A DNA stretch of 64,000 bases from a bacterium. GTDB taxonomy: Bacteria; Patescibacteriota; Patescibacteriia; JACQRZ01. The stretch spans positions 39,489 through 103,488 of the forward strand of contig JAHFJA010000002.1 in assembly GCA_023246095.1 (NCBI GenBank), read 5' to 3'. Position 1 is the stretch's first letter; every line of letters starts with the position of its first letter. This document shows, in pieces, positions 50,509-63,418 of the stretch. A program made the translations under genes and the position numbers. The notes beneath the pieces were generated by a model. That model did not search any database, had not been told where the DNA came from, and worked only from the letters and a program-made list of their open reading frames with translations.

Positions 50509-51132
50509 ATGCCAAAAGCAACGATGCCCCCTACCAAGAAAAAGAGTACGAAGAGCGCACCTGCCCGTGTTCGTAAGACAGCTCCAGAACAAGCGGAAGT
50601 TCCTGAGATCACTATTCCTCGCAGTAACCAGGAATATCTCCATTGGACAATTTTTGTCGTCGTGTCGGTGTTAGTAGCATTTACTGTTATCTATGCTGGT
50701 CGATCTGATTCTTCCAGTAATGCCGCAATGATTCCTTCACCAACTACTCAGAGTAAATCGACTACAAAAGAAGCTCCCCCTTATGTCCCTGAACCAACCA
50801 GCAAAACAGCTCAGAGCGAACAAGGAGTGATTGGTAAAGTTTTAAGCGTTACCGCTGACACACTGACATTAGAAAGCATCGCTCCTACCAAAGAAGGAGC
50901 AGCTATCGGCACGGTCTATACCACAAAAATCACGAGCGCAACAAAATTTGTCTACCACCCTGTCACCAGCAAAAAGGATAGCACAACAAAAACATTTGGT
51001 GCAGAAGCGGGTAATCTAGCGAATATCAAAAAAGGTATGTACGCATCAGCGACGACTCTTTCTGATGTAAACAAGCAGACAACGTTTGATGCGATCGAGG
51101 TGAACTATTCCGAAGCAAGTCCGTTGGAGTAG
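50509..51132 (+). CDS. Hypothetical membrane protein with basic N-terminus and one TM helix
   Basis: ORF track; hydrophobic WTIFVVVSVLVAFTVIYAG. Confidence 0.45.
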   Translation: MPKATMPPTKKKSTKSAPARVRKTAPEQAEVPEITIPRSNQEYLHWTIFVVVSVLVAFTVIYAGRSDSSSNAAMIPSPTTQSKSTTKEAPPYVPEPTSKTAQSEQGVIGKVLSVTADTLTLESIAPTKEGAAIGTVYTTKITSATKFVYHPVTSKKDSTTKTFGAEAGNLANIKKGMYASATTLSDVNKQTTFDAIEVNYSEASPLE

Positions 51133-51207: not shown

Positions 51208-51564
51208 TTACTCCTTTATTGGGCTAAGAAGTTTCTTCAATGTCGGTATATCCTCCTTCAATGTGTCCCACAGTATTGGTAACTCAATGTCGTCGTAGTG
51301 ATGAATCAATTTATCTCGCATTCCTGCCATTTCTCTCCAAGGAATATCCGGATATTGTTTTTTCATCGACAATGAAATACGTTTTGCCGCTTCACCGATT
51401 ATTTCAATACGCCGAATAATAGCATCTTGTGTTTTAGTATCACCAGCGAAAGAAGTTTTCTTTACACCCTTAATATAACTTTCTATCGCATAGATAGAAT
51501 CGGCAATATGCTTAACGTATAACTGATCCCTCTTAGAAGAGTCGTTTTTTTTCTTTGTTGACAT
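51208..51564 (-). CDS. hepT: HepT-family (DUF86) toxin RNase
   Basis: Rx4HxY motif RDKLIHHY; 118 aa; overlaps the upstream MntA-like gene. Confidence 0.75.
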   Translation of the reverse strand: MSTKKKNDSSKRDQLYVKHIADSIYAIESYIKGVKKTSFAGDTKTQDAIIRRIEIIGEAAKRISLSMKKQYPDIPWREMAGMRDKLIHHYDDIELPILWDTLKEDIPTLKKLLSPIKE

Positions 51565-51823
51565 TTGAGCGCATGTGTTTACAAAGACTCTCTTCGGTTA
51601 TGAGATCCACTCTCTTACCAATGAGGTCCTCTATTTGAAATTGCAAACCGAGAAGTCCTAAAAGGGTAACTTTCTTATTCTTTTTGAATGTGACAAGAAG
51701 ATCAAGATCACTCGTTTTTTTTGCATCTCCTCGCGCGTACGAGCCAAATATATGAGCGCGAGAAACTCCCGATTTCTTTAAAATCGGTATTGTATTTGAA
51801 AATTGTTGTATAGCTTGTTCCAT
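51533..51823 (-). CDS. mntA: MntA-family minimal nucleotidyltransferase antitoxin
   Basis: The GS-hG motif block FGSYARGDAKKTSDLDLLV with acidic residues; 96 aa; upstream of and overlapping hepT. Confidence 0.75.
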   Translation of the reverse strand: MEQAIQQFSNTIPILKKSGVSRAHIFGSYARGDAKKTSDLDLLVTFKKNKKVTLLGLLGLQFQIEDLIGKRVDLITEESLCKHMRSNVNKEKKRLF

Positions 51824-52364: not shown

Positions 52365-52730
52365 CTACACATCATTCTTTATATATTGTACTGCCTCGCT
52401 TTTGGTGATTATTTCTTTATTACGAAGAAGTGTTGCAGTGTTAATTTTTATCTCGTTCTTTGTGTCTTCAATCTTATCCATCAAACGGTGCTCCATCTTT
52501 CCCATGTCTGCTCTCAGCAAACCTAAATCCTCTTTTGTAGCAAAATGCTCAATATCTTTCTTTGTGGCAAAATCACGAAGATCATCTTTTGTAGCAAAGT
52601 TTTCAAGGTCTTTCTTTGTCGCCATATTAGCAAATCCCTTTCCCACCATCAGAGCAAAATCGTCAAAACGAGCTTCGAGGGTTGTATTAAGAATCTGTGT
52701 AAATTCTTCTTTTGAAAGTGGGGTGTCCAT
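52365..52730 (-). CDS. Hypothetical protein with four tandem 9-aa repeats (ATKKDLENF / ATKDDLRDF / ATKKDIEHF / ATKEDLGLL)
   Basis: 27-nt periodic DNA repeat visible at ~52530-52640; ORF track. Confidence 0.5.
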   Translation of the reverse strand: MDTPLSKEEFTQILNTTLEARFDDFALMVGKGFANMATKKDLENFATKDDLRDFATKKDIEHFATKEDLGLLRADMGKMEHRLMDKIEDTKNEIKINTATLLRNKEIITKSEAVQYIKNDV

Positions 52731-52925
52731 ATAATGTTATTAATGGCACTAAGATATAAGAAACTATATCAAACCTTCAAAAAAACAACAACCGTTATAT
52801 TCGACGTACATTGTGCTATAATACATACATCTGACCCTTAACAAATTATTCTTAATTCATGAATTTATAACTATTATGTCAAAGATGCCCTTTAGGGTGC
52901 CAGGACCTATGCAGATACCTACTTA

Positions 52926-52952
52926 AAAATCCCGCATTCATGTGGGATTTTT
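52926..52952 (-). terminator. Terminator-like hairpin aaaaatcccgca-ttca-tgtgggattttt (same family)
   Basis: Read from the sequence; downstream of the 52983 gene. Confidence 0.4.
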
Positions 52953-52982
52953 AATTTATAATGTTTTTTGAAAGGACTATAC

Positions 52983-53588
52983 TTATTTCTTAGTATAAGG
53001 ATTATTTTTTGAATATATGACTTGCTCAGGAGTTTGATTTAACAAAGTAGGATCTGTCGTATTGACTTGAATATAATCTCCTTTTTTGACATCCTCACGT
53101 TTTCCAATTGTCATAGTTATTTTTTTGTTTACATCAGAAACTGGTGTAACAAAGCTTGTTTGCTCATTTAAAGAAAAAGTATAAATTTTTCCACTAAGTG
53201 TCCCTGGGGTTGTTTGTATCTTCATATTGTTCTCGTACGCCCTCATTACCAAAGTTTTATCATTAACACTATCAACCTCTCCGACAACAGGCAATCCAGC
53301 AACGACAGATACTCTAGTTGCTGGTTGGGCTACTCTTGTTTTTTCCCCCAAGCCTAATAACTGTTTCATTGTAGTTGGGGTAGTGTTTTGTTCGTTCTTA
53401 GTTATCGGTTTACTAAGCTTTTCCAGATTGGAAATCTCTGCCATATTTGTCGGTTCGCTATCGATGCTCGTTTTATTGATTTGCAGTGTCAATCGAACTG
53501 TTAAAAACAATGATACCAGCGAAATGACACCGAATAAGCCAACGATTAGAAAAAATAAAGTCTGAGGTTTTTTTGAACTTATCATCAT
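52983..53588 (-). CDS. Hypothetical single-pass membrane protein (likely start MMISSKKPQ; ORF extends to 53639)
   Basis: ORF track; TM helix TLFFLIVGLFGVISLVSLFLTV. Confidence 0.45.
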   Translation of the reverse strand: MMISSKKPQTLFFLIVGLFGVISLVSLFLTVRLTLQINKTSIDSEPTNMAEISNLEKLSKPITKNEQNTTPTTMKQLLGLGEKTRVAQPATRVSVVAGLPVVGEVDSVNDKTLVMRAYENNMKIQTTPGTLSGKIYTFSLNEQTSFVTPVSDVNKKITMTIGKREDVKKGDYIQVNTTDPTLLNQTPEQVIYSKNNPYTKK

Positions 53589-53617: not shown

Positions 53618-56215
53618 TTAAAAATCTGAACCAATACAATCCTTGTCAAAATATATTCCACCAGGACTAAACAAATTACCATTTTCGTACCTAGCACTAC
53701 ACGTCATATATCGATACATCGATGGAAGACCCGAACCTACTGTTGCTGGGTGCATATCTATTTTTAATATACCGAGATCCATTTCAAGAGCTACTCCAAC
53801 AAATAAGTTTCGACCTACATATGTCTCATTAGCTGAAGACAAATCTCCACCAGAAACAATATCGCCATCAGCAACAATATTACGCCCAACAGTAAGATCT
53901 CGCCCCACATCGGTATCTCTACCTGAATGTAAGCGATCTCCACCTATTTCTCCTGTTACACCAATATTCCCTCCGTGAGTAAGGTCAGTTAAACTACCTA
54001 TTAAAGCTATATCTTTCCCGTTTGCTACATATCCAGCATCAAGAACTGCTTGAAGATCACCAGATCCCCCTGTCCCTGTACCCCCCGGCCAATCTGTTCT
54101 ACAAACACCACCGATACAGACATTTCCCTTGAAATTTGCAAGCCCCTCAAACGTGGCTTGCTCTCTAAACCAAGAAAAATCGTCAACTTGTAGTGCATTT
54201 TGATGCAGCCCTCCAATCATAGGTAGTGCCTCAATTTGTAATCCACCTTGAAGGTTAATTTTATTGTTCGTAACAGCCCCCAGGTCTGTAACTTGTTGCA
54301 ACGTGCCCACTGAACCGCTTCCTGACGGATATGTGATAACGTTTGTAATTGACGTACTATCATTGGTATCTCCAAGATTATCTTTGCCACACCCCCAACC
54401 AGTGCCATTATACTTGAGTACTTGCTGGCTGGAACAGGAAGGCAACTGCATAGGTGATGGCCAACCAATTCTGCAATCTGTTCCTATACAAACCGTTGGT
54501 GCCTTTAATTGCATATTTGACGTAATAGCACCCGTAGCCGTGATTATACCGCCTGATACAATCTGGCCAGTAGTAGTAACGGAACCGGCACTTAGTGTAC
54601 GGATCTGCATATCTTGAGTTGGTGCCTGATTGTTAATAGCAAGAACATCACCAAGACCTTGATTTCCTACCTTAAGAACAAGCCGGTCCGGTGACCAAGT
54701 ACTGATACATGTTGCTCCATTAAGACATATCGAGGGTGTAGTCACCGAGGTTGTTGCAGTAATCGCTCCTGCGGTTAACGCCCCACTACCCGCATTAATA
54801 CCAGCTCCGTTGGTGACAATACCCCCATTGGCCGACAAAAGTCCCGTAAACGTCCCCGTACCTCCGCTAATAGGACCAGTTCCAGCATTAATACCAGCTC
54901 CGTTGGTGACTACACCCCCATTAGCAGTTAAGAGTCCTGTGATAGTGGTGGCGCCTGTAACACCAAGTTTACCTTTTAGTGTCGTATCATTCGATACATC
55001 TAACGTTCCATTGATGGCGGTATTGCCCCCGATAGTCAAACGATTCCCTGCTACAGGCGGTGTTCCGATACCGACCAATCCATTTATTTGAAGATTCCCA
55101 TAACTACCGGAAGGACTCGTCCCGTTTACACTCAATAAATCCCCCGTTGATGCGCCCTCCAGAACACTCACTGCATTAACTCCCGTCCCCACTCCGATCT
55201 GGTACTTTCCTGTTTTGGAAGCAGTACCCGACTGTATCGTCCCATTCACATCAAGTGGTACTGCGGGGTTTGCTCTCCCAATACCCACAAGTCCGTTTAT
55301 CGCAACATTAGTATAAGCATTAGAACCCCCAATTGGCCCGTTGATGTTCAGTAAGCTTCCATCAGCCACGGAAGATTCTATTGCCGACTTACCTCCAATT
55401 TGAAATTTTCCTAGATTATTAGCCGTACTTGATTGCACTGTCCCGTTTACATCAAGCGCTGTCGCGGGACTAACATTCCCGATCCCCATCCTATTATTCA
55501 AAAGCGTAACAAACTTGTTTATAATCCCCCCATTTTTTATGTCCAAATTCCCTGCGGCTTCCATATTTCCGTCAGTGTCGACGCGAAACTTTTTAACAAA
55601 CCCTTTTTCAAACAACAGAAAATTCGGCGTAGTAAGCGGGTTACCTGTAGAGAACGTATTATTATGCACATTTCCAAACAAAAGATTTGTCCCTGCAGCC
55701 AAGATAGGACCCGGGCTAATAGGGCCCAGAGCAACATCAAACACGGTACCCAAAGTTGTCATACCCCCGATAGCGGTTGTCTCATCCCCATCTTGGTCCA
55801 GCACGACCCCGTGTGTCGTAAAGCGTCCCTTGTTCGTCACGTCTTGAAGTGAAGGACTGATGTTCAGCCAATCACTTCGACAATCAGGACTCGAGGCAGG
55901 TCCAAAACAAAGAGTGGAAACAACAAGCCTGCCCCCTGCACTACTTCCCAACACCATATCACCCAAAAATTTGGAAGCATCGGCGCTAATATCAAGAACA
56001 CTTTTTAACCCCCCAGGACCAGCACCCGTATCTGGTTGTCCGTAGGGAGGAAGCTGTACCGGCTCTTTAAACGCTGCCTGTGCAACCTGGTGACCCATGA
56101 ACACGAACAAGGCAACCGCGACCACCAAAAAAGGAAGCAGTACTTTTTTTGTAGTGGCTATCCCCTTCTTCGACTTTAGTTCTGATGATGTTGATATGTT
56201 CTTTATCTCTTTCAT
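53618..56215 (-). CDS. Giant (865 aa) secreted Gly/Thr/Asn-rich repeat protein, beta-helix / fibre-like
   Basis: N-terminal signal/TM LLPFLVVAVALFVFMGHQVAQA; repeated GIGxxxPxxxLDVNGT(V/I)QS units; two ~31-aa tandem repeats NGG(V/I)VTNGAGINAG(T/S)G. Confidence 0.6.
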   Translation of the reverse strand: MKEIKNISTSSELKSKKGIATTKKVLLPFLVVAVALFVFMGHQVAQAAFKEPVQLPPYGQPDTGAGPGGLKSVLDISADASKFLGDMVLGSSAGGRLVVSTLCFGPASSPDCRSDWLNISPSLQDVTNKGRFTTHGVVLDQDGDETTAIGGMTTLGTVFDVALGPISPGPILAAGTNLLFGNVHNNTFSTGNPLTTPNFLLFEKGFVKKFRVDTDGNMEAAGNLDIKNGGIINKFVTLLNNRMGIGNVSPATALDVNGTVQSSTANNLGKFQIGGKSAIESSVADGSLLNINGPIGGSNAYTNVAINGLVGIGRANPAVPLDVNGTIQSGTASKTGKYQIGVGTGVNAVSVLEGASTGDLLSVNGTSPSGSYGNLQINGLVGIGTPPVAGNRLTIGGNTAINGTLDVSNDTTLKGKLGVTGATTITGLLTANGGVVTNGAGINAGTGPISGGTGTFTGLLSANGGIVTNGAGINAGSGALTAGAITATTSVTTPSICLNGATCISTWSPDRLVLKVGNQGLGDVLAINNQAPTQDMQIRTLSAGSVTTTGQIVSGGIITATGAITSNMQLKAPTVCIGTDCRIGWPSPMQLPSCSSQQVLKYNGTGWGCGKDNLGDTNDSTSITNVITYPSGSGSVGTLQQVTDLGAVTNNKINLQGGLQIEALPMIGGLHQNALQVDDFSWFREQATFEGLANFKGNVCIGGVCRTDWPGGTGTGGSGDLQAVLDAGYVANGKDIALIGSLTDLTHGGNIGVTGEIGGDRLHSGRDTDVGRDLTVGRNIVADGDIVSGGDLSSANETYVGRNLFVGVALEMDLGILKIDMHPATVGSGLPSMYRYMTCSARYENGNLFSPGGIYFDKDCIGSDF

Positions 56216-56327: not shown

Positions 56328-57038
56328 TCATCTCAAAACCGATTGATAGTTCTTAAGCAAAAATACTGTTTCGGTTTTGAGATGCGTCTTGACCCACGCT
56401 TTATTTTTTTCATTCAAAAGCTCACCTAATCCTTGCAATATCTGTGCATCTTTCACTTGTTCGACAAGAGAAATACAGTCATCGATGTACTCTTTCAGGC
56501 TTTTTGTCGTCCACTTCGCCAACACCTCTCTGTCAATATCCCAGTTATTTTTTGCAAAGTACCACACATCGTAGATATCACGCATTGCGGTTTCGCTTCG
56601 CAAGGTCAACGCAGCAAGCTTGCTTGCGAATAGATATGGCCTTTTGGCAACGAACATTGAAATCCCCAAATACTCTTTTAGTTCATATTCCTCCTTGAGG
56701 TCAGGCACCACCCTTCTTGTACTTATCTCAATTTTAATATTGTGGTCAGTATCCCCGTAAGAAAGAAGACAAAAGATAGTATTCATTTTTATGTAACTGT
56801 CTTTGATAATGCCATATCGCTCTAAAATCGTTTTAATCCTCTCGAAGATTAATGTATAAGTATCTTGATCGCCACCAATCACATCAAAATCCAAATCAAC
56901 TGAAAATCGTGGCAACTCGTAAAAAAAATATGCACACGTACCCCCTTTAAAACCCAAAAATGGCGCAATTGACACATCAGCATATATGTCTCGCAAAATC
57001 CGTCCCATTATGAGTTGGTGTTTTTCTCTATTCAGCAT
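56328..57038 (-). CDS. abiEii: AbiEii/AbiGii-family nucleotidyltransferase toxin (DUF1814)
   Basis: GFKGGTCAYFFY...RFSVDLDFD motif (GG...S.DLDF of the AbiEii NTase). Confidence 0.75.
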   Translation of the reverse strand: MLNREKHQLIMGRILRDIYADVSIAPFLGFKGGTCAYFFYELPRFSVDLDFDVIGGDQDTYTLIFERIKTILERYGIIKDSYIKMNTIFCLLSYGDTDHNIKIEISTRRVVPDLKEEYELKEYLGISMFVAKRPYLFASKLAALTLRSETAMRDIYDVWYFAKNNWDIDREVLAKWTTKSLKEYIDDCISLVEQVKDAQILQGLGELLNEKNKAWVKTHLKTETVFLLKNYQSVLR

Positions 57039-57642
57039 ATTTTTTTTGATATCTCCTCAATCGTCTGACGAGCTGTTCGTTCCCATATAGCGAGACCAAA
57101 TCAAAACACTTATCCCAATTAACAGGACGAAGATTATCAAAATGGTAGTCGGGAAAAAGATATATCATATCCAAAAATGCTCGCTCTGCCGAGGCAATAC
57201 CATACGTGCCTTTGTTCTCTATCCCCATTCCATTAAACAACACAGTGTCTTTTAATGTTCTAAATATGATAGTTGTCGAATCGATAACCATTGTTTTCGA
57301 CCAGGGGCCGGCAACAAAAATTGCGTCATAATACTGAAACACCATACCTTCTTCTCGAAGCACGGATTCAAAACTGATATATGAAGGAGTATAGATACTC
57401 GTCGCGAGTTCTTTTGAATTATAATTCTTATCTTTTGCAAACACACCACGAGTAAGGCGGATTAAGTCTCCTTGTTTAACATAATATGATATCTTTGATT
57501 TCAGGTTATTTCGATTCGTTTCTCCCCATAATAAAGCTAAATCCTTGCTCGTAAGGATTGTTTTGGGGGACTGGTACAATATAGCAATCAAGTTATCCAT
57601 GACGATATGTTTGATGGAAGTACTATACACTCTTACTTCCAT
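57028..57642 (-). CDS. abiEi: AbiEi-family antitoxin / transcriptional regulator (possible start at 57600)
   Basis: LIRLTRGVF (RG.F/Y) and PSYISFESVL motifs shared with the paralog at 60993; overlaps the toxin start by 11 nt. Confidence 0.65.
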   Translation of the reverse strand: MEVRVYSTSIKHIVMDNLIAILYQSPKTILTSKDLALLWGETNRNNLKSKISYYVKQGDLIRLTRGVFAKDKNYNSKELATSIYTPSYISFESVLREEGMVFQYYDAIFVAGPWSKTMVIDSTTIIFRTLKDTVLFNGMGIENKGTYGIASAERAFLDMIYLFPDYHFDNLRPVNWDKCFDLVSLYGNEQLVRRLRRYQKKYAE

Positions 57643-57811: not shown

Positions 57812-58294
57812 CTATACGTTAAAATGATCCAGATATCCTTTTATGTTTAGGGTCGTTTCGTCAAGTATTATGTTTTCAACAAGGACTTTGAAGACCCACT
57901 GAGTAATCCCCCACGCCGAGAGGATGACGGCCAAACCGAGAAGTGCGTATTTAAGGATGTGTTGTGCTTTTTCTACATTGTCTTTTTCTCCATGCGCGGT
58001 CATCCAAAGAAAGCCTGCATAGAGGATAAGGGAGACGGAGAGAATAGCAAGAAAACCAAGAATGTATTTAAGTACATTTGCTATCAGTGTAATTGGTTCA
58101 AGCTTATTCTGTGGTAAGGTGGTACCTTTAGTGCCCGTAGTATTCTTGAACTCACCTCCTGTGAGTATATCGGACAGAGACACCGCATACGAGGAAATAG
58201 GCATTACGGTCACGACCATACTACCCAAAGTAAAGGTCAGCATACCAATGGCAATAAACGTGCGTGCTTTTTGTATTGATGAAAATATATTCAT
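57812..58294 (-). CDS. TrbC/VirB2-like (T4SS-type) pilin paralog 1
   Basis: N-terminal signal/TM; C-terminal motif LYAGFLWMTAHGEKDNVEKAQHILKYALLGLAVILSAWGI. Confidence 0.7.
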   Translation of the reverse strand: MNIFSSIQKARTFIAIGMLTFTLGSMVVTVMPISSYAVSLSDILTGGEFKNTTGTKGTTLPQNKLEPITLIANVLKYILGFLAILSVSLILYAGFLWMTAHGEKDNVEKAQHILKYALLGLAVILSAWGITQWVFKVLVENIILDETTLNIKGYLDHFNV

Positions 58295-58296
58295 AT

Positions 58297-58779
58297 CTAG
58301 GTACCCGTAACGGCTTTAGCGATTGTTAAAAGAACCCAGTAGGTCAGTCCCTGTGCCGCAATGATAATTACTAAACCAACGACTGCCGTCTGGAGGAGAT
58401 CTTGTGCTTTTTTTACCTTCTCTTTTTCACCCTGTGCCGTCATCCAGAGATATCCTGCATAAAGAGTGAGAATGAGAAATATTATGCCAAGAAACCCAAG
58501 AAATATTTGAATAACACTCCCAATAATCATACCTATTGAGTTGGTAGGTGCACCCGACGTAGCTCCACAGGTCTTCCCCCATGCACCACCCGCCGTTTGG
58601 AGATAATCTAATATTCCTTTGTCAGCACAATCAGAGGTGGTAACAGCAAATCCATTAATACCCGCAAGAGCGAGGGTGAATACCATCGCACTCATGCCAA
58701 TATATCGAACCGCATGACTCATGCGCTCCGCGACGGACTTGGCTAAAATAGTATTTTCTTTTGTTACCTTCTTTTTCAT
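58297..58779 (-). CDS. TrbC/VirB2-like pilin paralog 2
   Basis: Motif LYAGYLWMTAQGEKEKVKKAQDLLQTAVVGLVIIIAAQGL. Confidence 0.7.
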   Translation of the reverse strand: MKKKVTKENTILAKSVAERMSHAVRYIGMSAMVFTLALAGINGFAVTTSDCADKGILDYLQTAGGAWGKTCGATSGAPTNSIGMIIGSVIQIFLGFLGIIFLILTLYAGYLWMTAQGEKEKVKKAQDLLQTAVVGLVIIIAAQGLTYWVLLTIAKAVTGT

Positions 58780-58812
58780 ATCGAAGATATCGCAGATGCC
58801 TTTCGGGTATTA

Positions 58813-59232
58813 TTACTTCACTCCCGTGATGGGTTTAAGGCTTTCCACCACGAAATAGGCAATGGCGTAGGAGGACAAAACGATGATAAGCCCAATCACT
58901 GCCGTCGTGATCATTCCGCGCGCTTTTTCTACCTTTGTCTTATCCCCTTCTGCGGTCATCCACTTGGTGCCGGCATAGAGTAAGATAATCAACAGCACGA
59001 TACCCATTATACCGAGAATCACTTTTATCACTGCGCCAATAATAAGCGGGACTGAGTCGGCGGTTGCCGTCACTTTTGCTGCTGTTTTAGCTTGGTCAAA
59101 TACAGAATTAATGTCATTCTTTGCTGCTATCTGAGTACGGGGAATATTGGTTGTCAGTGTTGTCGTCGCAAACGCACCACTTCCTGCCAACATACTTACC
59201 GAAACAATAATTGCAAAAAAAATCTTTTTCAT
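58813..59232 (-). CDS. TrbC/VirB2-like pilin paralog 3 (start at MKKIFFAII; ORF extends to 59388)
   Basis: Motif LYAGTKWMTAEGDKTKVEKARGMITTAVIGLIIVLSSYAI. Confidence 0.7.
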   Translation of the reverse strand: MKKIFFAIIVSVSMLAGSGAFATTTLTTNIPRTQIAAKNDINSVFDQAKTAAKVTATADSVPLIIGAVIKVILGIMGIVLLIILLYAGTKWMTAEGDKTKVEKARGMITTAVIGLIIVLSSYAIAYFVVESLKPITGVK

Positions 59233-59234
59233 AC

Positions 59235-59672
59235 CTAGTGAGCAGCGGTTATTGGCCCTACTAGTCGAGATAAGACGAAAGCAGTGATCGCGTAAGCAGA
59301 CAGCACAATGATAAGACCCAGTACCGCATGAAATATAAGACCGCGTGCTTTTCCTACCTTTGTCGTATCCCCTTCCGCCACCATCCATAGGATACCGCCA
59401 TACACGACAAGGATCAGAAATACCAAACCAAGAACAGATAAAATGATCTGGATGGAAACACCGATTATTGCGGGAAGTGTTTGTTCATCAAGATTATTAA
59501 AGCCAAAAAAACCTTTGAACCCTTCCGCGCTTTTATTCAAACTATCTAGCGGTGGGGTTGAAAGAGGAACAGCAAATACAGGGATTGGAATCCCTGGCGC
59601 AAAAACAAGAACGCCTGCTATCAGAGTTGATAGCAGGGCGCCGATGCCGACTTTGAAGAAAGTCTTGTTCAT
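59235..59672 (-). CDS. TrbC/VirB2-like pilin paralog 4
   Basis: Motif VYGGILWMVAEGDTTKVGKARGLIFHAVLGLIIVLSAYAI. Confidence 0.7.
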   Translation of the reverse strand: MNKTFFKVGIGALLSTLIAGVLVFAPGIPIPVFAVPLSTPPLDSLNKSAEGFKGFFGFNNLDEQTLPAIIGVSIQIILSVLGLVFLILVVYGGILWMVAEGDTTKVGKARGLIFHAVLGLIIVLSAYAITAFVLSRLVGPITAAH

Positions 59673-59696
59673 GGGAGTAAAATCTATGTGCGCAGC

Positions 59697-60113
59697 TTAT
59701 TTAATGATAGTCGCAGGAACACTAAACGCGTATTGTGCAATGCCCCATGCAGAGAGAATAATAACAAGCCCAATAACTCCCTGTATCAACATTTTTTGTG
59801 CGGATTCAACTTGTTCATCTTTACCTCCTGCGGTCATCCATTTGAAACCTGCAATCAAAATGATAATCACGGCGATAATACCGAGAAACCCAAGAACAAA
59901 ATTAATAACCGATACCACTGTCTCGTAGGGGGCAATAGCTGTCGAATCATGACCTGGCAATGGTGCATTTTTTGAATCGTTTAATCCATATCCAGTCGTT
60001 GGGACAACCGGCGCCGCCGCATTCACCATCGACACAGGCAAAAGTCCAAAACCTACCGTCAATACACTCGCGACAAGGAACGTTCGTACTACGTTTTTGA
60101 GAGTTGTTTTCAT
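59697..60113 (-). CDS. TrbC/VirB2-like pilin paralog 5
   Basis: Motif LIAGFKWMTAGGKDEQVESAQKMLIQGVIGLVIILSAWGI. Confidence 0.7.
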   Translation of the reverse strand: MKTTLKNVVRTFLVASVLTVGFGLLPVSMVNAAAPVVPTTGYGLNDSKNAPLPGHDSTAIAPYETVVSVINFVLGFLGIIAVIIILIAGFKWMTAGGKDEQVESAQKMLIQGVIGLVIILSAWGIAQYAFSVPATIIK

Positions 60114-60214
60114 ACAACGTACAAGGAAATTAAAAATAAATTCTTATTAAGTACTTATAGTATAGCAGACTGTTTTAAGAGCGGAAGTGAATTACTTTTT
60201 ACTACTTCATCTAA

Positions 60215-60991
60215 TCATAGTGGTGCCTGCGTAATGAACTCACGAAATAGTTCAACTTTCCGAACATCACTCGCATCGAACAAAAAAGGTTGTATGTCTC
60301 GTCCTAGTTCTTTAAAATCCAGTCCAGCCGTTGATTCCAACATTCTCGCGCGGAGCCCTTCCGGATCCCCTACCCCAATCTTTGCCTGAAGATACTCATA
60401 GTTCGGTTTGGTAAACGAGGAAAGGAAGACAATGTCATAAAAATCACGACCTTTCGCGCGCTTGCGATTTATCGCCGCAAACATCTTCTGAGAAAGTAAT
60501 ATGTCAGGAGGGGTAACGAAAATCTCCGAAAATACGTCAAACTTGTTAAGAATTTTCTTGTCTGGTTGATAAGAGACGCCATGAGCCAGACTGTCAACTT
60601 GTATGAGAATCTTTTCTTCCTGATATGGTGACAGTTCATTCACAAATAGTATATCAGGCAACCGCACTCGACACCGATAGGCGTCTTTACCAACAGTATC
60701 GATTTCAACGCGCAAACCTTGCCGCTCCAGTTCAACTTGGATGATGTGCGCAAGCTCTTCAAACTCGCCGTCTTCCAGATTGAAATTATCAAAGTCTAAA
60801 TCTTCCGAAAATCGGGTATTCCCATATATAATTCGTAACGCAGTACCACCCAAGAACGCCAGTTTAGCGGCATGCGGGGAAGCAAAAATAATTTCAAGGA
60901 TCTTATACTGAAGGTACTCTCGAAGAATACCCCGTTTGAATGGACGTAACGACTCCGGATATTGTTGTTCGATTTGCTGCAAGGTCAACAT
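60215..60991 (-). CDS. abiEii: AbiEii/AbiGii-family nucleotidyltransferase toxin (DUF1814)
   Basis: Canonical FLGGTALRIIYGNTRFSEDLDFD motif. Confidence 0.85.
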   Translation of the reverse strand: MLTLQQIEQQYPESLRPFKRGILREYLQYKILEIIFASPHAAKLAFLGGTALRIIYGNTRFSEDLDFDNFNLEDGEFEELAHIIQVELERQGLRVEIDTVGKDAYRCRVRLPDILFVNELSPYQEEKILIQVDSLAHGVSYQPDKKILNKFDVFSEIFVTPPDILLSQKMFAAINRKRAKGRDFYDIVFLSSFTKPNYEYLQAKIGVGDPEGLRARMLESTAGLDFKELGRDIQPFLFDASDVRKVELFREFITQAPL

Positions 60992-60992
60992 A

Positions 60993-61613
60993 TCATTTTG
61001 ATTGTTTAATCAACGAGATAAGATCTTCTGTTCTCCTTAGAAACCCCCTACTTGTATACACCATGGCATATTTCCGAAATTTTTTTATGTCGGCTTTTTC
61101 TAAAAACTCTTCACTATTGAACCTCCATTCGTAAAAATCTTCAGGCTTAATAATATTTGGGTGGAGATATACATAATCGAGCACTGCTTTTTCAATCTCC
61201 GCAATTTTGTACGTATATCCATTCTTTGTTTCCAGTCGATACCCAAAAAAATACTCCGCTTTAATTTGTTGGTATGAAAATTCCGTAACCGGTGACTTAA
61301 AACTGGCCGTCTTCTTACTGGACGCCGAGGTAATCGAATATACCCCCTCCGGAATCAAACCATAATACGACAACGCCATTTCAAAAGATACGTACGATGG
61401 CGGGTATAACCGATTTGCAATCAAAAACAATACCTCTTCGCTCAAAGGAAGATCGGCAAACATGTAATAACCACGACGCAGCTTCTTGATATATCCCTTA
61501 TTTTGCCACTCATTAAGCTGATGACGATAAAAAGTTGGATCGATCTTGCGAATATCCACCAAGGAAAAAACAGCAAAGTCTTTCAACTCTCCTTGTAATT
61601 GTTGGTACTTCAT
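60993..61613 (-). CDS. abiEi: AbiEi-family antitoxin (start at MKYQQLQ; ORF extends to 61679)
   Basis: KKLRRGYYMF and PSYVSFEMALSYYGLIP motifs; 1-nt gap to the downstream toxin. Confidence 0.7.
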   Translation of the reverse strand: MKYQQLQGELKDFAVFSLVDIRKIDPTFYRHQLNEWQNKGYIKKLRRGYYMFADLPLSEEVLFLIANRLYPPSYVSFEMALSYYGLIPEGVYSITSASSKKTASFKSPVTEFSYQQIKAEYFFGYRLETKNGYTYKIAEIEKAVLDYVYLHPNIIKPEDFYEWRFNSEEFLEKADIKKFRKYAMVYTSRGFLRRTEDLISLIKQSK

Positions 61614-61711
61614 AGATTTCCGAAACGTACTATATTTAGTACTCTTTGGAATTATAACAACAGAGAAAGAATCGCGCAAACGATATCATGTCTACACATC
61701 GGTGTGTTACT

Positions 61712-62068
61712 TTATTTCCCCAACAAAGCAGTGAGGAGGAATCTGACGATTGCGGCGCTGGCGAAGATGACCGCCATACCGATTGCGGCCCATATCATGG
61801 TATCCATGCCTTTTGTTACTTTTCCTTTATCCCCTGCCGAGGTCATCCAGAGAATACCGCCATAAACAAAGACCACCAGTGCGATTGAGCCGGACAGGCC
61901 GAGAAATGCATTGATAACCAAGCCAATAAATTCCGCGGGGCTATTCACTGCGAGAGGGTTTTCAAGAGTCACGTTACCAGCAGCGGCGTATGCGAAGTGA
62001 GTGGTAAGGAGGGTGATGCCGGCTATCGCTGTTGATAGGGTGACGGTACTATTTTTGGGGAGGGGCAT
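61712..62068 (-). CDS. TrbC/VirB2-like pilin paralog 6 (short, 118 aa)
   Basis: Motif VYGGILWMTSAGDKGKVTKGMDTMIWAAIGMAVIFASAAI. Confidence 0.7.
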   Translation of the reverse strand: MPLPKNSTVTLSTAIAGITLLTTHFAYAAAGNVTLENPLAVNSPAEFIGLVINAFLGLSGSIALVVFVYGGILWMTSAGDKGKVTKGMDTMIWAAIGMAVIFASAAIVRFLLTALLGK

Positions 62069-62086
62069 ATTTCTTGCTAATTCGAT

Positions 62087-63418
62087 TTAATAGATTATTG
62101 CGTTGGGACAGTCTACTTTCCATCTTTCATCCATGCCAATAAATTCTGTGGTTCCACAGGATGTCGCATTAGGACAGTAGAACTTATTATGAATTGTTAC
62201 GTCCAAAAACGCCTTATTTTGACAGTCAGTAGATGAGATAGACTCGCTGGTATGAAATGCAGTCCCTGATCCATTGGTATTATACGATACACAGCATACC
62301 CCATTTGAAATAACTACAGGAGCGCCACATTTCCCTGCGGTACACTGTCCTGTCTTACATTGTGCAGGGTCTGTACATGCTTCATTATCGTTCTTTTTTA
62401 ACTCACAAGTACCATTCGCAGGGTCGTTTGGGTTAGTACAGTACTGAGTCCCCGCACATTGCGCTTGCATTGGTGGAACCTCACATTTTTGACCCGTTAA
62501 TTTTATCGGCAACACACAGCAACACTTGTTTCCTGTAATAAGATATGACGATACAAACACTCGATTCTTGTTTGTCTGATTACTCGCGACCGCGTCACAA
62601 ACAGCGCTTCCAAAACCACAATCACTGTTAGCTATAAAATGATCCGTACTAGTACAAGACTCATCTTTACAATGATAGCAATACGGTGCTGCGCCCACCC
62701 CTGTACTAAACTCAAATTTTCCCGCACCACACATTTGCAATGCTTTGGCCGAGGCCTCGGCGTACGTTACATAACAGCCACCCTGACTTTGCGCTTGAGT
62801 TTGAGCTAGTTGTATCTCCGGCACCACCCCAATCGTTCCAAAGTGTATCGGCGTACAAATATCTGCTTGATATGACCATTTGCTAGTACCATTAAAAATT
62901 CCTCCCAGACGACCTGCAAGTGTCTTGTCGCCCGTTTCTTTTTTAATCAAACTAGTCATAACAAAGTTTACCGCCATCCAGCTGGTAAACACAATCACGA
63001 GCCCAATCGCGGCGTTGACCATCGTCTCTGTCCCTTTTGTCACTTTCCCTTTATCCCCCGCCGAAGTTAAATACTGAAAGCCCCCCAACACCACCATCAA
63101 AAGCGCGACACTGCCGCTTATGCCCAGAATAAACGTTGCGATATTGATAGCAAGCTGAATAAACGCATCCAAGGTATAATTACAACACAACATATCGCAC
63201 ATCGGGATGATCTTGCTTATAAGCTCACCTGATTGCGGTGCACACATTGCCGGTCCCCCTGCACATCCCCCAGGAACAAACGACGCTGTTGATTTACCCG
63301 CCAATGTCGAATCTGCCCACACCAGCGTAGCAGTAGCGCCGATGCTGGCGATAACCATAACGCCAAAAAGAAATGACAGTATGGCGAGGCGGTATTTTTT
63401 TGGATGACGAAGTTTCAT
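62087..63418 (-). CDS. TrbC/VirB2-like pilin module fused to a ~300-aa Cys-rich C-terminal ectodomain
   Basis: Motif LGGFQYLTSAGDKGKVTKGTETMVNAAIGLVIVFTSWMAV, followed by a domain with >35 Cys (CCCVLP, CTAGKCG, CCVSY and others). Confidence 0.65.
   Translation of the reverse strand: MKLRHPKKYRLAILSFLFGVMVIASIGATATLVWADSTLAGKSTASFVPGGCAGGPAMCAPQSGELISKIIPMCDMLCCNYTLDAFIQLAINIATFILGISGSVALLMVVLGGFQYLTSAGDKGKVTKGTETMVNAAIGLVIVFTSWMAVNFVMTSLIKKETGDKTLAGRLGGIFNGTSKWSYQADICTPIHFGTIGVVPEIQLAQTQAQSQGGCYVTYAEASAKALQMCGAGKFEFSTGVGAAPYCYHCKDESCTSTDHFIANSDCGFGSAVCDAVASNQTNKNRVFVSSYLITGNKCCCVLPIKLTGQKCEVPPMQAQCAGTQYCTNPNDPANGTCELKKNDNEACTDPAQCKTGQCTAGKCGAPVVISNGVCCVSYNTNGSGTAFHTSESISSTDCQNKAFLDVTIHNKFYCPNATSCGTTEFIGMDERWKVDCPNAIIY

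What the first reader, a model, noticed from the sequence alone, without database searches (positions are those of the whole stretch)
53618..56215. Giant secreted Gly/Asn/Thr-rich beta-helix-like repeat protein with near-perfect internal DNA tandem repeats
The 865-aa product has an N-terminal signal/TM segment and then hundreds of residues of repeats: three units of the GIGxxxPxxxLDVNGT(V/I)QS type, and a ~31-aa tandem repeat NGG(V/I)VTNGAGINAG(T/S)G. The latter is encoded by a ~45-nt DNA segment repeated with 93-nt periodicity (about 54790-54960), which could be prone to slippage or recombination. The C-terminus has short G-D/R-rich repeats (DLTVGRNIVADGDIVSGGDL). This resembles phage tail-fibre, adhesin or S-layer-like fibres. 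It sits directly upstream of the AbiE and pilin genes and is followed by a small membrane protein. It could be a surface fibre or a receptor-binding protein of prophage origin.
Basis: seen in the sequence. Interest (0 to 1): 0.55.

Follow-up and report, generated by a model that had tools for sequence, protein, structure and literature searches.

The report
Secreted mosaic fibre adhesin, ultrasmall bacterium
This gene most likely encodes a secreted, tail-fibre-like surface fibre of an ultrasmall Patescibacteria (CPR) bacterium, with a conserved base and a swappable tip, so it is a plausible but unproven host-attachment protein and not a prophage part.

Summary
The 865-aa ORF (53618-56215, minus strand) is real, and so are its repeats, but the DNA repeat was overstated. 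It has two copies 93 nt apart, 78% identical over 80 nt, with a 26-nt exact core.

The protein has a Sec-type signal peptide, one hydrophobic segment and six local Cys pairs. It matches no Pfam, PHROG or NCBIfam family. An exhaustive search of 1.84 billion proteins found 47 hits, and only one resembles it over much of its length.

A profile of its VGIGxxxPxxxLDVxG units hits only the crystal structures of Bdellovibrio MAT (mosaic adhesive trimer) fibres and MyRF. These units form the capping loops of trimeric beta-helices. Relatives that share modules often end in a Peptidase_S74 chaperone. This protein does not.

The surrounding genes are chromosomal housekeeping genes of a Patescibacteria genome, and nothing nearby is phage. 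The gene lies at the 3' end of a VirB2-like pilin array, with an AbiE pair inserted in between. At the orthologous locus in two related genomes the N-terminal module is conserved and the C-terminal part is replaced.

Best reading: a MAT-like fibre adhesin without S74. The link to the pilin array is confined to this lineage and has not been shown to be functional. Structure prediction largely failed.

The parts
53618..56215 (-). Fibre gene, 865 aa including the stop codon
   Evidence: ORF list. An identical protein is on record in NCBI, ENA and Logan.
56075..56215 (-). Signal peptide, residues 1-47: a Lys-rich n-region, the hydrophobic stretch VLLPFLVVAVALFVFMG, then AQA|A
   Evidence: Sequence inspection. 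It is the only strongly hydrophobic 19-mer in the protein. The same layout and an A-A-(F/W) junction occur in P0004, P0008 and P0031. Cleavage is inferred, not shown.
55526..56074 (-). Conserved N-terminal module, residues 48-230. It contains AFKEPVQLPPYGQP, the first Cys hairpin (C103-C112) and LQDVTNKGRFTTHGVVLDQDGDETTAIGG. It is the presumed base or anchor end.
   Evidence: About 55% identical to P0004 over residues 49-230 and 40% identical to P0008 over residues 49-120, while the C-terminus has no match. The start module is shared with P0031 and with the archaeal S74 fibre P0030.
55028..55525 (-). Three capping-loop units of about 67-71 aa, residues 231-396. (V/M)GIGxxxPxxxLDVNG at residues 244 and 311, degenerate at 382.
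   Evidence: Self-comparison and motif scan. Profile A4 hits MAT fibre structures 8OND, 8OJN, 8OML, 8OL4 and 8ON4, and MyRF 7DC3 and 5YHU. The sequence alone hits 8OML at E 0.033. AF2 pLDDT is 80-89 at these loops only.
54746..55027 (-). Beta-helix-like G/T/N-rich region with the 31-aa repeat in two copies, residues 397-490
   Evidence: Similar to P0002, P0007, P0012, P0013, P0033, P0036 and P0040. 4 of the 47 proteins scanned score as Bactofilin-type beta-helix.
54768..54940 (.). The DNA direct repeat: 54768-54847 and 54861-54940, 93-nt spacing, 78% identity, 26-nt exact core
   Evidence: the repeat finder and base-by-base comparison.
54071..54745 (-). Cys-hairpin region, residues 491-715. 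C(I/L)xGxxC(R/I)xxW(P/S) occurs at 497-507, 576-585 and 700-709, and LPSCSSQQVLKYNGTGWGCGKDN at 591-613. Each hairpin is followed by an LQxV(T/L)xxG segment.
   Evidence: Motif scans. AF2 places short beta-hairpins at each motif. The same modules occur in P0004, P0017, P0029, P0041, P0047, P0048, P0005 and P0043. Profiles A6 and A7 match no solved structure.
53777..53992 (-). About 12 hexapeptide repeats of the form x-(D/N)-(L/I)-x-V-G, residues 742-813
   Evidence: Register printed. TRF reports an 18-nt period at 53839-53880.
53621..53776 (-). Orphan C-terminal tip, residues 814-865, with the C839-C860 pair. It is the presumed ligand-binding end.
   Evidence: No homologue for residues about 640-865 among 1.84 billion representatives other than the protein itself. 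No match to P0004 or P0008.
52983..53588 (-). Downstream 201-aa protein with an N-terminal TM segment. It is probably co-transcribed, but a functional link is doubtful.
   Evidence: No Pfam hit. It is distantly related to the 207-aa protein at 50509-51132. In L002 and L005 the small TM proteins after the fibre gene lie on the opposite strand.
52923..52954 (.). 14-bp palindromic hairpin with T/A runs, a likely bidirectional terminator ending the fibre and 201-aa unit
   Evidence: Terminator scan.
56328..57642 (-). AbiEi/AbiEii pair inserted between the last pilin gene and the fibre gene
   Evidence: Pfam AbiEii at 3.8e-20 and a weak AbiEi_4 hit. The pair is absent at the orthologous position in L002 and L005.
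57812..63418 (-). VirB2/TrbC-like pilin array of seven PF18895 genes, interrupted by a second AbiE pair at 60215-61679
   Evidence: Precomputed Pfam hits, hmmscan and translations.

Best explanation
The gene encodes a Sec-exported, disulfide-stabilised mosaic fibre. It probably trimerises into a beta-helical shaft and is displayed on the surface of a Patescibacteria (CPR) cell.

Proposed layout:
- The conserved N-terminal module (residues 48-230) is the cell-proximal end. It holds the fibre on the envelope, through a partner that is not known.
- The shaft is a chain of interchangeable modules: capping-loop units of the MAT/S74 type, G/T/N-rich beta-helix turns, Cys hairpins and hexapeptide turns.
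- The orphan C-terminal tip is the ligand-binding end.

At this chromosomal locus related genomes keep the base and exchange the rest. This is the pattern expected of a protein that recognises a variable partner such as a host-cell surface.

Shown here: the anatomy, module homology to MAT and tail-fibre beta-helices, the cellular genomic context, and the pattern of a conserved N-terminus with a variable C-terminus.

Inferred: signal-peptide cleavage, trimerisation, surface display, adhesion and the nature of the target.
For: 1. Export. There is a single N-terminal hydrophobic segment with an AxA site. The 12 Cys fall into six sequence-local pairs. The same N-terminal layout occurs in P0004, P0008 and P0031.

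2. Fibre modules.
- Profile A4 of the GIG units hits only Bdellovibrio MAT fibre structures (8OND 8.7e-16, 8OJN 6.7e-12, 8OML 1.3e-8, 8OL4, 8ON4) and MyRF.
- In those structures the motif forms the capping loops of a trimeric beta-helix (PMC10769870).
- The P0001 segment alone hits 8OML at E 0.033.
- All 16 Foldseek PDB hits of the fragment model are MAT fibres or MyRF, and loops superpose at 0.9 A over about 24 columns.
- Viral hits are S74 or tail-fibre proteins.
- 7 of the 47 proteins scanned carry Peptidase_S74 and 4 of 47 score as Bactofilin-type beta-helix.

3. Cellular, not viral. The flanks are housekeeping genes. There is no PHROG hit and no phage tblastn hit.

4. Conserved base and swapped tip at one orthologous locus. 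The order is pilin, fibre, small TM proteins, IleRS in the window, L002 and L005. IleRS is 84% identical and the p207 protein 64-69% identical. The fibre N-terminus is 40-55% identical and the C-terminus has no match.

5. Organism. The P0008 fragment is named 'Patescibacteria group bacterium', and pilin homologues are named Parcubacteria or Patescibacteria. The Hainich groundwater contig names (Hain_H41_01um and 02um) may denote 0.1 and 0.2 um filter fractions. Cultivated members of this group are obligate epibionts that need adhesins (PMC10633639; PMC12206443).
Against: - No usable 3D model was obtained. The full-length AF2 run gave pLDDT 31. The fragment gave 63, confident only at two loops.
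- Trimerisation was never tested.
- The N-terminal module has no detectable relatives beyond four proteins, so its anchoring role is a guess by analogy with MAT proteins.
- No cell-wall anchor was found: no LPXTG, SLH or LysM by Pfam.
- The tip has no recognisable binding fold.
- The Foldseek PDB E-values are not significant overall (best 0.035).
- There are no expression or localisation data.
Confidence: 0.6

Rival explanations
1. It is an adhesin or tip partner of the T4SS-type (VirB2-like) pilus. The conserved N-terminal module would dock onto the pilus or the T4SS encoded by the adjacent pilin array, and the variable C-terminus would set the target range.
For: - The gene lies at the 3' end of a seven-gene PF18895 array on the same strand.
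- In L002 and L005 the homologue directly follows the last pilin gene.
- Published surveys found VirB2 arrays but no adhesin in Patescibacteria T4SS (PMC12102498).
- The pilins are essential in Southlakia (PMC10633639).
Against: - The three linked cases are orthologous loci of one lineage, not independent events.
- Three other lineages' pilin arrays (L007/L008, L011/L012 and L009) have no fibre gene after them.
- No virB4 or other T4SS machinery gene was found among the ORFs annotated in the 64-kb window. Not all ORFs were scanned.
- An AbiE pair separates the fibre gene from the array here.
- The protein bears no similarity to VirB5 or PrgB.
Confidence: 0.1
2. It is a structural envelope or S-layer-type protein of the CPR cell rather than a specific adhesin.
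For: - It is secreted, Gly/Thr/Asn-rich and repetitive, with a conserved N-terminus and a variable remainder.
- There is one copy in the 64-kb window.
Against: - The module homology is to fibres, not to lattice-forming proteins.
- No SLH or other S-layer domain was found.
- The family is extremely rare: 47 hits in 1.84 billion, and only one is related over much of its length. This does not fit a core envelope component.
Confidence: 0.12
3. It is a polymorphic toxin or contact-dependent effector. A conserved N-terminus and fibre would deliver a variable C-terminal toxin, and the downstream 201-aa protein would be the immunity factor.
For: - It has a conserved N-terminus with a replaced C-terminus.
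- A small gene lies 30 nt downstream on the same strand.
Against: - No toxin domain was found in Pfam or NCBIfam.
- P0008's variable part is made of Ig-like and Cys-rich repeat domains, not a toxin.
- The small TM proteins belong to a family scattered around the locus, and they lie on the opposite strand in L002 and L005.
Confidence: 0.04
4. It is a prophage or phage-derived receptor-binding tail fibre.
For: - The shaft modules are shared with viral S74 and tail-fibre proteins.
- AbiE and HepT/MNT modules lie nearby.
Against: - No phage structural, integrase or terminase gene was found among the ORFs annotated in the window, and the flanks are housekeeping genes.
- No PHROG hit and no tblastn hit in 50,697 phage genomes.
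- It has a Sec signal peptide.
- The locus is conserved in three related genomes between the pilins and IleRS.
Confidence: 0.03

Closest known systems
Bdellovibrio bacteriovorus MAT (mosaic adhesive trimer) fibres, NS74 subgroup (Caulton et al. 2024, PMC10769870; PDB 8OJN, 8ONB, 8ONC, 8OND, 8OML, 8ON4, 8OL4, 8ONF)
   Same: - A signal peptide, then a conserved N-terminal domain, then a mosaic beta-helical shaft with V-G-x-x-x-x-P-x-x-x-L capping loops, then a variable tip without S74.
- A similar size (627-1,031 aa for MATs).
- The profile and Foldseek hits go specifically to these structures.
- The same logic of a conserved retention end and a diversified recognition end.
   Different: - No detectable similarity outside the capping-loop units. 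The N-terminal module and the tip are unrelated at the sequence level.
- The Cys-hairpin modules are not seen in the solved MAT fragments.
- The host is a Patescibacteria bacterium. The literature compares the Patescibacteria T4SS with that of monoderms (PMC12102498), whereas Bdellovibrio is a diderm predator.
- One copy in the 64-kb window, against 21 paralogues in the Bdellovibrio genome.
Phage and virus tail fibres or tailspikes with the Peptidase_S74 intramolecular chaperone (K1F endosialidase 3GW6, T5 pb1 4UW8)
   Same: - They share the GIG...P...L capping-loop and beta-helix repeat modules.
- 7 of the 47 proteins scanned end in S74.
- The BFVD hits are S74 or tail-fibre proteins.
   Different: - No S74 domain or SDxxxK motif here (and sequence inspection).
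- A Sec signal peptide is present.
- The context is chromosomal, not viral.
Myelin regulatory factor (MyRF) ICA region (7DC3, 5YHU)
   Same: It carries the same capping-loop motif preceding an S74-type domain.
   Different: It is a eukaryotic membrane-bound transcription factor. Only the roughly 25-residue motif is shared.
Surface adhesins of Gram-positive conjugative T4SS (PrgB type) and the VirB5 pilus-tip protein
   Same: The position next to T4SS-type pilin genes suggests a possible analogous role in target contact.
   Different: There is no sequence or domain similarity. The published Patescibacteria survey found no PrgB-like adhesin. The linkage is not general.

Membership tests
MAT (mosaic adhesive trimer) fibre superfamily | N-terminal signal peptide | tested here: met
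   Lys-rich n-region, a 17-residue hydrophobic core and AQA|A. This rests on sequence inspection only; no SignalP run was possible.
MAT (mosaic adhesive trimer) fibre superfamily | The conserved beta-rich domain of about 130 aa, immediately after the signal peptide, that all 21 Bdellovibrio MATs share | not testable with these tools
   No MAT N-terminal sequence or structure was available, because the PDB entries hold C-terminal fragments only. A conserved module does sit in the same position here. The exhaustive search found relatives of it in only four proteins, at least one of them archaeal. Homology to the MAT domain is therefore unlikely, though the analogy holds.
MAT (mosaic adhesive trimer) fibre superfamily | Beta-helical shaft with capping-loop motif V-G-G/N-pi-x-x-P-x-x-x-L | tested here: met
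   Two canonical units and one degenerate unit. Profile hits to five distinct MAT chain sequences from four MAT fibres, down to E 8.7e-16. A single-sequence hit at E 0.033. Local structural match at 0.9 A. The motif here has one more residue between G and P than the published consensus.
MAT (mosaic adhesive trimer) fibre superfamily | Homotrimerisation | not testable with these tools
   Only monomer AF2 was available, and those models were poor.
MAT (mosaic adhesive trimer) fibre superfamily | Diversified C-terminal tip on a conserved base | tested here: met
   Orthologous-locus comparison: the N-terminus is 40-55% identical and the C-terminus has no match.
MAT (mosaic adhesive trimer) fibre superfamily | Surface display on the producing cell | not testable with these tools
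   This needs microscopy or proteomics.
S74 tail fibre / endosialidase-type fibre | C-terminal Peptidase_S74 intramolecular chaperone with SDxxxK | tested here: not met
   No Pfam hit even at E<=1, and no SDxxxK in the sequence.
Phage tail fibre / receptor-binding protein (virion component) | Encoded within a phage or prophage structural module | tested here: not met
   Housekeeping neighbours, no PHROG family and no match in phage genomes.
Left-handed beta-helix hexapeptide-repeat proteins (Pfam Hexapep) | Match to the hexapeptide-repeat profile | tested here: not met
   Hexad periodicity is visible at residues 742-813 but Pfam gives no hit. The only trace is a weak PDB hit at E 0.04. That chain looks like a gamma-carbonic-anhydrase-like left-handed beta-helix, going by my own recollection of the family rather than a test.
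Contingency (slippage) locus | An array of near-identical short tandem repeats able to change copy number | tested here: not met
   Two copies, 78% identity, 26-nt exact core, and no TRF array. No DGR-type template repeat elsewhere in the window.

The most novel reading that the evidence does not exclude
The fibre is the missing target-contact component of the Patescibacteria VirB2-like (T4SS-type) pilus system. On this reading its lineage-specific N-terminal module docks onto the pilus or secretion apparatus encoded by the adjacent pilin array, and exchange of the C-terminal cassette re-targets the epibiont to new hosts.

A broader version also fits the evidence. The Cys-hairpin, LQxVT and capping-loop modules are shared with archaeal chromosomal fibre genes (L013, L014), so they may form a common fibre toolkit used by cellular organisms beyond phages.
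Probability: 0.12. Interest if true: 0.75.

Novelty: new variant of a known kind. Interest (0 to 1): 0.4.

Why it matters
How ultrasmall Patescibacteria recognise and hold on to host cells is largely unknown. Type IV pili and a few lectin-like proteins have been implicated, and published surveys found no adhesin for their unusual pilus-bearing T4SS.

A MAT-like fibre with a conserved base and a swappable tip, sitting at the end of a VirB2-like pilin array, is a concrete and testable candidate for a host-range determinant.

It also extends the mosaic trimeric fibre idea from a diderm predator and phages to Patescibacteria, and through shared modules to archaeal chromosomes.

On the other hand, fibre-like orphan surface proteins are common in such genomes, and nothing here proves function.

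Tried and rejected
- **Family libraries.** Pfam, PHROGs, NCBIfam and a PDB sequence search with the whole protein gave nothing meaningful.
- **Word-indexed homologue search.** The whole protein returned only itself and one repeat-sharing protein. The same search with the N-terminal profile A5 returned nothing, not even the query, so it is uninformative.
- **Collection scans.** Genome contigs and metagenome-contig scans with the N-terminal alignment found only the P0008 locus.
- **AF2 on the full length.** A 5-sequence alignment gave pLDDT 31, which is unusable.
- **AF2 on residues 225-500.** A 40-segment alignment gave pLDDT 63, confident only at the GIG loops. Global TM-scores are therefore meaningless, and only the local matches and the identity of the hits were used.
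- **Cys-module profiles.** Profiles of the Cys-hairpin and CxxGQxLKWxGxxWxC modules against the PDB gave no match.
- **Prophage idea.** Rejected on context and a phage-genome tblastn.
- **DGR-type diversification.** No template or variable repeat pair in the window.
- **General pilin-to-fibre linkage.** Rejected after inspecting three other lineages' arrays.
- **Independent assembly check.** L001 is the same sequence. The ENA contig's DNA was not retrievable.
- **Literature look-up of sample accessions.** Nothing found.
Full report
**1. Observation**

The ORF at 53618..56215 on the minus strand is real. It starts with ATG and encodes 865 aa. The product is 16% Gly, 9.8% Thr and 7.2% Asn.

It has one strongly hydrophobic stretch, at the N-terminus (residues about 22-44), preceded by a Lys-rich segment and followed by AQA|AF. 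Its 12 cysteines form six sequence-local pairs: 103/112, 497/503, 576/581, 594/609, 700/705 and 839/860. This pattern fits an extracellular, disulfide-bonded protein.

The internal repeats are these:
- Units of 67-71 aa carry (V/M)GIGxxxPxxxLDVNGT(V/I)QS at residues 244 and 311. A degenerate third unit starts at residue 382.
- A 31-aa unit is present twice, at residues 420-481.
- About twelve hexapeptides of the form x-(D/N)-(L/I)-x-V-G span residues 742-813.

At the DNA level only the 31-aa unit is recognisable. Two 80-nt copies (54768-54847 and 54861-54940) lie 93 nt apart, 78% identical, with a 26-nt exact core. Tandem Repeats Finder (TRF) does not call this an array. It reports only an 18-nt period with 2.4 copies at 53839-53880, inside the hexapeptide region.

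The observation therefore holds, but 'near-perfect tandem repeats', 'giant' and 'three LDVNGT units' are overstated. The second assembly that carries the gene (L001) is 100% identical to the window over 15.4 kb. It gives no independent check on assembly collapse.

**2. Homology**

The protein matches no Pfam, PHROG or NCBIfam family and no PDB sequence.

An exhaustive phmmer search of 1.84 billion cluster representatives gave only 47 proteins at E<=1e-3, including the query itself. Only P0004 (713 aa, E 1.3e-77) resembles it over much of its length. P0008 and P0031 share the N-terminus. All other hits share single repeat modules. Nothing matches residues about 640-865.

When 47 proteins (46 of these hits plus the query) were scanned against Pfam, 7 carried Peptidase_S74, the intramolecular chaperone of tail fibres and endosialidases. 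Four scored as Bactofilin-type beta-helix.

I built a profile from 38 GIG units, two of them from this protein (A4). It hits, in the whole PDB, only the following:
- Bdellovibrio bacteriovorus MAT fibre structures: 8OND/Bd2133 at 8.7e-16, 8OJN/Bd3182 at 6.7e-12, 8OML/Bd1334 at 1.3e-8, 8OL4/Bd2439 at 2.3e-5 and 8ON4 at 6.2e-5.
- The myelin regulatory factor (MyRF) ICA region: 7DC3 and 5YHU.

In the MAT structures this motif (published consensus V-G-G/N-pi-x-x-P-x-x-x-L) forms the capping loops on the edges of a trimeric beta-helix. The authors also noted its presence in MyRF (PMC10769870). Residues 225-407 of the query alone hit 8OML at E 0.033.

**3. Structure prediction**

The full-length AF2 run with a 5-sequence alignment failed, with mean pLDDT 31. 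It placed short beta-hairpins at each Cys motif and little else.

A second run covered residues 225-500 with 40 homologous segments. It reached pLDDT 63, with 80-89 only around the two canonical GIG loops.

Foldseek of that model against the PDB returned 16 hits. All were MAT fibres (Bd3182, Bd2133, Bd1334, Bd2439) or MyRF. The global scores were not significant (best E 0.035), but local loop superpositions reached 0.9 A over about 24 columns.

Against viral models the best hits (E down to 1.8e-4) were proteins annotated as S74 domain, intramolecular chaperone, tail fibre or fiber, from cyanophages, prasinoviruses and uncultured Caudovirales.

A monomer model cannot represent an intertwined trimer. 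I therefore use only the identity of the hits, not the geometry.

Profiles of the two Cys-containing modules, C(I/L)GxxC(R/K)xxWP and LPxCxxGQxLK(W/Y)xGxxWxCxxD, match no solved structure.

**4. Genomic context**

Nothing nearby is phage. Downstream lie a 201-aa protein with an N-terminal TM segment (30 nt away) and a strong palindromic terminator at 52923-52954. Further on come a 121-aa repeat protein, an MNT/HepT pair, a 207-aa TM protein, and then IleRS, RuvA, FemAB, an RNase T-like exonuclease, a Mur ligase and RpoC/RpoB. RecA, FtsK, IF-2 and RNase Y lie further along.

Upstream on the same strand are an AbiEi/AbiEii pair (56328-57642) and a seven-gene array of VirB2/TrbC-like pilins (PF18895). 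A second AbiE pair interrupts the array.

Such arrays, of 2-11 genes, have been described as a feature of Patescibacteria, especially Microgenomatia and Saccharimonadia. That survey found no PrgB-like adhesin (PMC12102498). In Southlakia epibionticum the T4SS pilins are essential for epibiotic growth (PMC10633639).

Several lines point to a Patescibacteria genome:
- NCBI names the P0008 fragment '[Patescibacteria group bacterium]'.
- The pilin homologues are named '[Candidatus Parcubacteria bacterium]' or '[Patescibacteria group bacterium]'.
- P0008's contigs come from Hainich groundwater. Their names (Hain_H41_01um, Hain-H41-02um) may denote 0.1 and 0.2 um filter fractions.
- IleRS of that genome is 84% identical to the window's.

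The window therefore most likely comes from a Patescibacteria genome. This is inferred, because the window contains no rRNA.

A tblastn search of the fibre against 50,697 phage genomes found nothing.

**5. Comparative anatomy of the locus**

The loci of P0004 (L002) and P0008 (L005) are orthologous to the window. In all three the order is last pilin gene, then fibre gene, then small TM proteins, then (where the contig extends far enough) the 205-207-aa protein and IleRS.

Neither has the AbiE pair, so that pair is a secondary insertion in the window's lineage.

| Compared protein or region | Identity to the window's copy |
|---|---|
| IleRS | 84% |
| 207-aa protein | 64-69% |
| Last pilin | 48-51% |
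| Fibre, residues 49-230, vs P0004 | about 55% |
| Fibre, residues 49-120, vs P0008 | 40% |
| Fibre shaft, vs P0004 | partly alignable; P0004 lacks residues about 225-324 |
| Fibre C-terminus, residues 716-865 | no match to either |

After about 105 residues P0008 continues with a coiled coil, Big_13/Ig-like domains and Cys-rich repeats. The base is conserved while the shaft and tip are exchanged. The MAT authors list this as the logical signature of a surface recognition system.

**6. Is the pilin linkage functional?**

The three linked cases belong to one lineage and count as a single evolutionary observation. I looked at pilin arrays of other Patescibacteria, found through homologues of the last pilin:
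- L007/L008 and L011/L012 have seven pilins followed by a convergent EamA gene.
- L009 has a solute-binding protein and six pilins, followed by unrelated high-GC genes.

None has a fibre gene after the array. No virB4 or other T4SS machinery gene was found among the window's ORFs that I annotated; not all were scanned. The pilus-adhesin idea therefore remains a minority hypothesis.

**7. Wider distribution of the modules**

The start module is a Cys hairpin followed by LQxVTxxG..TT..(I/L)DxDGDExTxIGG. It recurs in P0030, an S74-terminated fibre on an archaeal contig next to ribosomal proteins L37e and S8e and an LSM gene. The ORF upstream of P0030 also carries GIG motifs.

The Cys-hairpin and CxxGQxLKY modules recur in P0047, on an archaeal contig next to MCM and eRF1 genes. 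P0041 is named Nitrosopumilaceae archaeon.

These modules are thus part of a pool shared by cellular genomes of bacteria and archaea, and by viruses.

**8. Mechanism proposed**

- Sec export with SPase I cleavage after A47 (inferred).
- Oxidative formation of six local disulfides (inferred from spacing).
- Trimerisation into a beta-helical shaft punctuated by capping loops. Homology to MAT and S74 fibres is shown for the loops. Trimerisation itself is inferred.
- Retention on the envelope through the conserved N-terminal module (by analogy with MAT proteins).
- Ligand binding by the orphan tip (inferred from position and variability).

The protein lacks S74, so it would belong with the 'NS74' kind of fibre, which folds without the chaperone.

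The rivals are an S-layer or envelope protein, a pilus-associated adhesin, a polymorphic toxin and a prophage fibre. They are weighed in their own section. The prophage reading is effectively refuted.

**9. Verdict**

This is a real, well-delimited gene for a secreted mosaic fibre. It is a new variant of the MAT and tail-fibre-like adhesin kind, with lineage-specific base and tip and structurally uncharacterised Cys-hairpin modules.

Interest is moderate. It is a concrete candidate for a host-recognition determinant in an epibiotic lineage where such determinants are sought. Its function is inferred only, structure prediction failed, and the most exciting link, to the T4SS-type pilus, is not general.

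Noticed in passing
window 57812-63418 (- strand): Seven-gene array of VirB2/TrbC-like pilins (PF18895). The first gene (62087-63418, 443 aa) fuses the pilin domain to a long Cys-rich C-terminal extension. A solute-binding protein gene precedes the array, as it does in the related array of L009.
   Followed up: partly
window 56328-57642 and 60215-61679: Two AbiEi/AbiEii toxin-antitoxin pairs sit inside and at the end of the pilin array. The AbiEii copies are only 28% identical, so they were acquired separately. Both are absent at the orthologous positions in L002 and L005.
   Followed up: partly
window 51208-51823: An MNT (NTP_transf_2/Polbeta) and HepT-like toxin-antitoxin pair lies between the fibre locus and IleRS. 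With the two AbiE pairs it makes three TA or defence modules within 11 kb, which suggests an insertion hotspot.
   Followed up: no
window 52365-52730 (repeat at 52527-52627): A 121-aa protein has 27-nt (9-aa, FATK(E/D)DL-type) tandem repeats. An orthologue of 127 aa is present in L002, and there is no Pfam hit.
   Followed up: no
window 452-4528 and 5918-8593 (- strand): Two large, acidic, Lys/Glu-rich orphan ORFs (1358 and 891 aa) have no Pfam family and no obvious signal peptide.
   Followed up: no
L005 (CAYHKW010000005.1): The record title says 'uncultured Gammaproteobacteria bacterium'. However, NCBI names the P0008 fragment, whose full-length form this contig encodes, 'Patescibacteria group bacterium'. 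The gene content (a PF18895 pilin, and synteny with the window) also disagrees with the title, which is probably a mislabel.
   Followed up: partly
L013 1056-4888 and L014 7214-8585: Archaeal contigs also encode fibre proteins built from the same GIG, Cys-hairpin and LQxVT modules. L013 carries ribosomal L37e, S8e and LSM genes. L014 carries MCM and eRF1. One of the fibre proteins has an S74 end and one lies next to a Gp53-like_C protein. The modules are therefore shared across domains in cellular chromosomes.
   Followed up: partly
L004 1527-4786: P0031 (446 aa) has the related N-terminus AAWQEPTEAPPGGNVPAPINVG and a Cys/Trp-rich C-terminus that resembles the variable region of a DGR target (recalled from memory, not tested). 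A second fibre-like gene with CIGADCRTSW and GIG motifs follows it directly.
   Followed up: no
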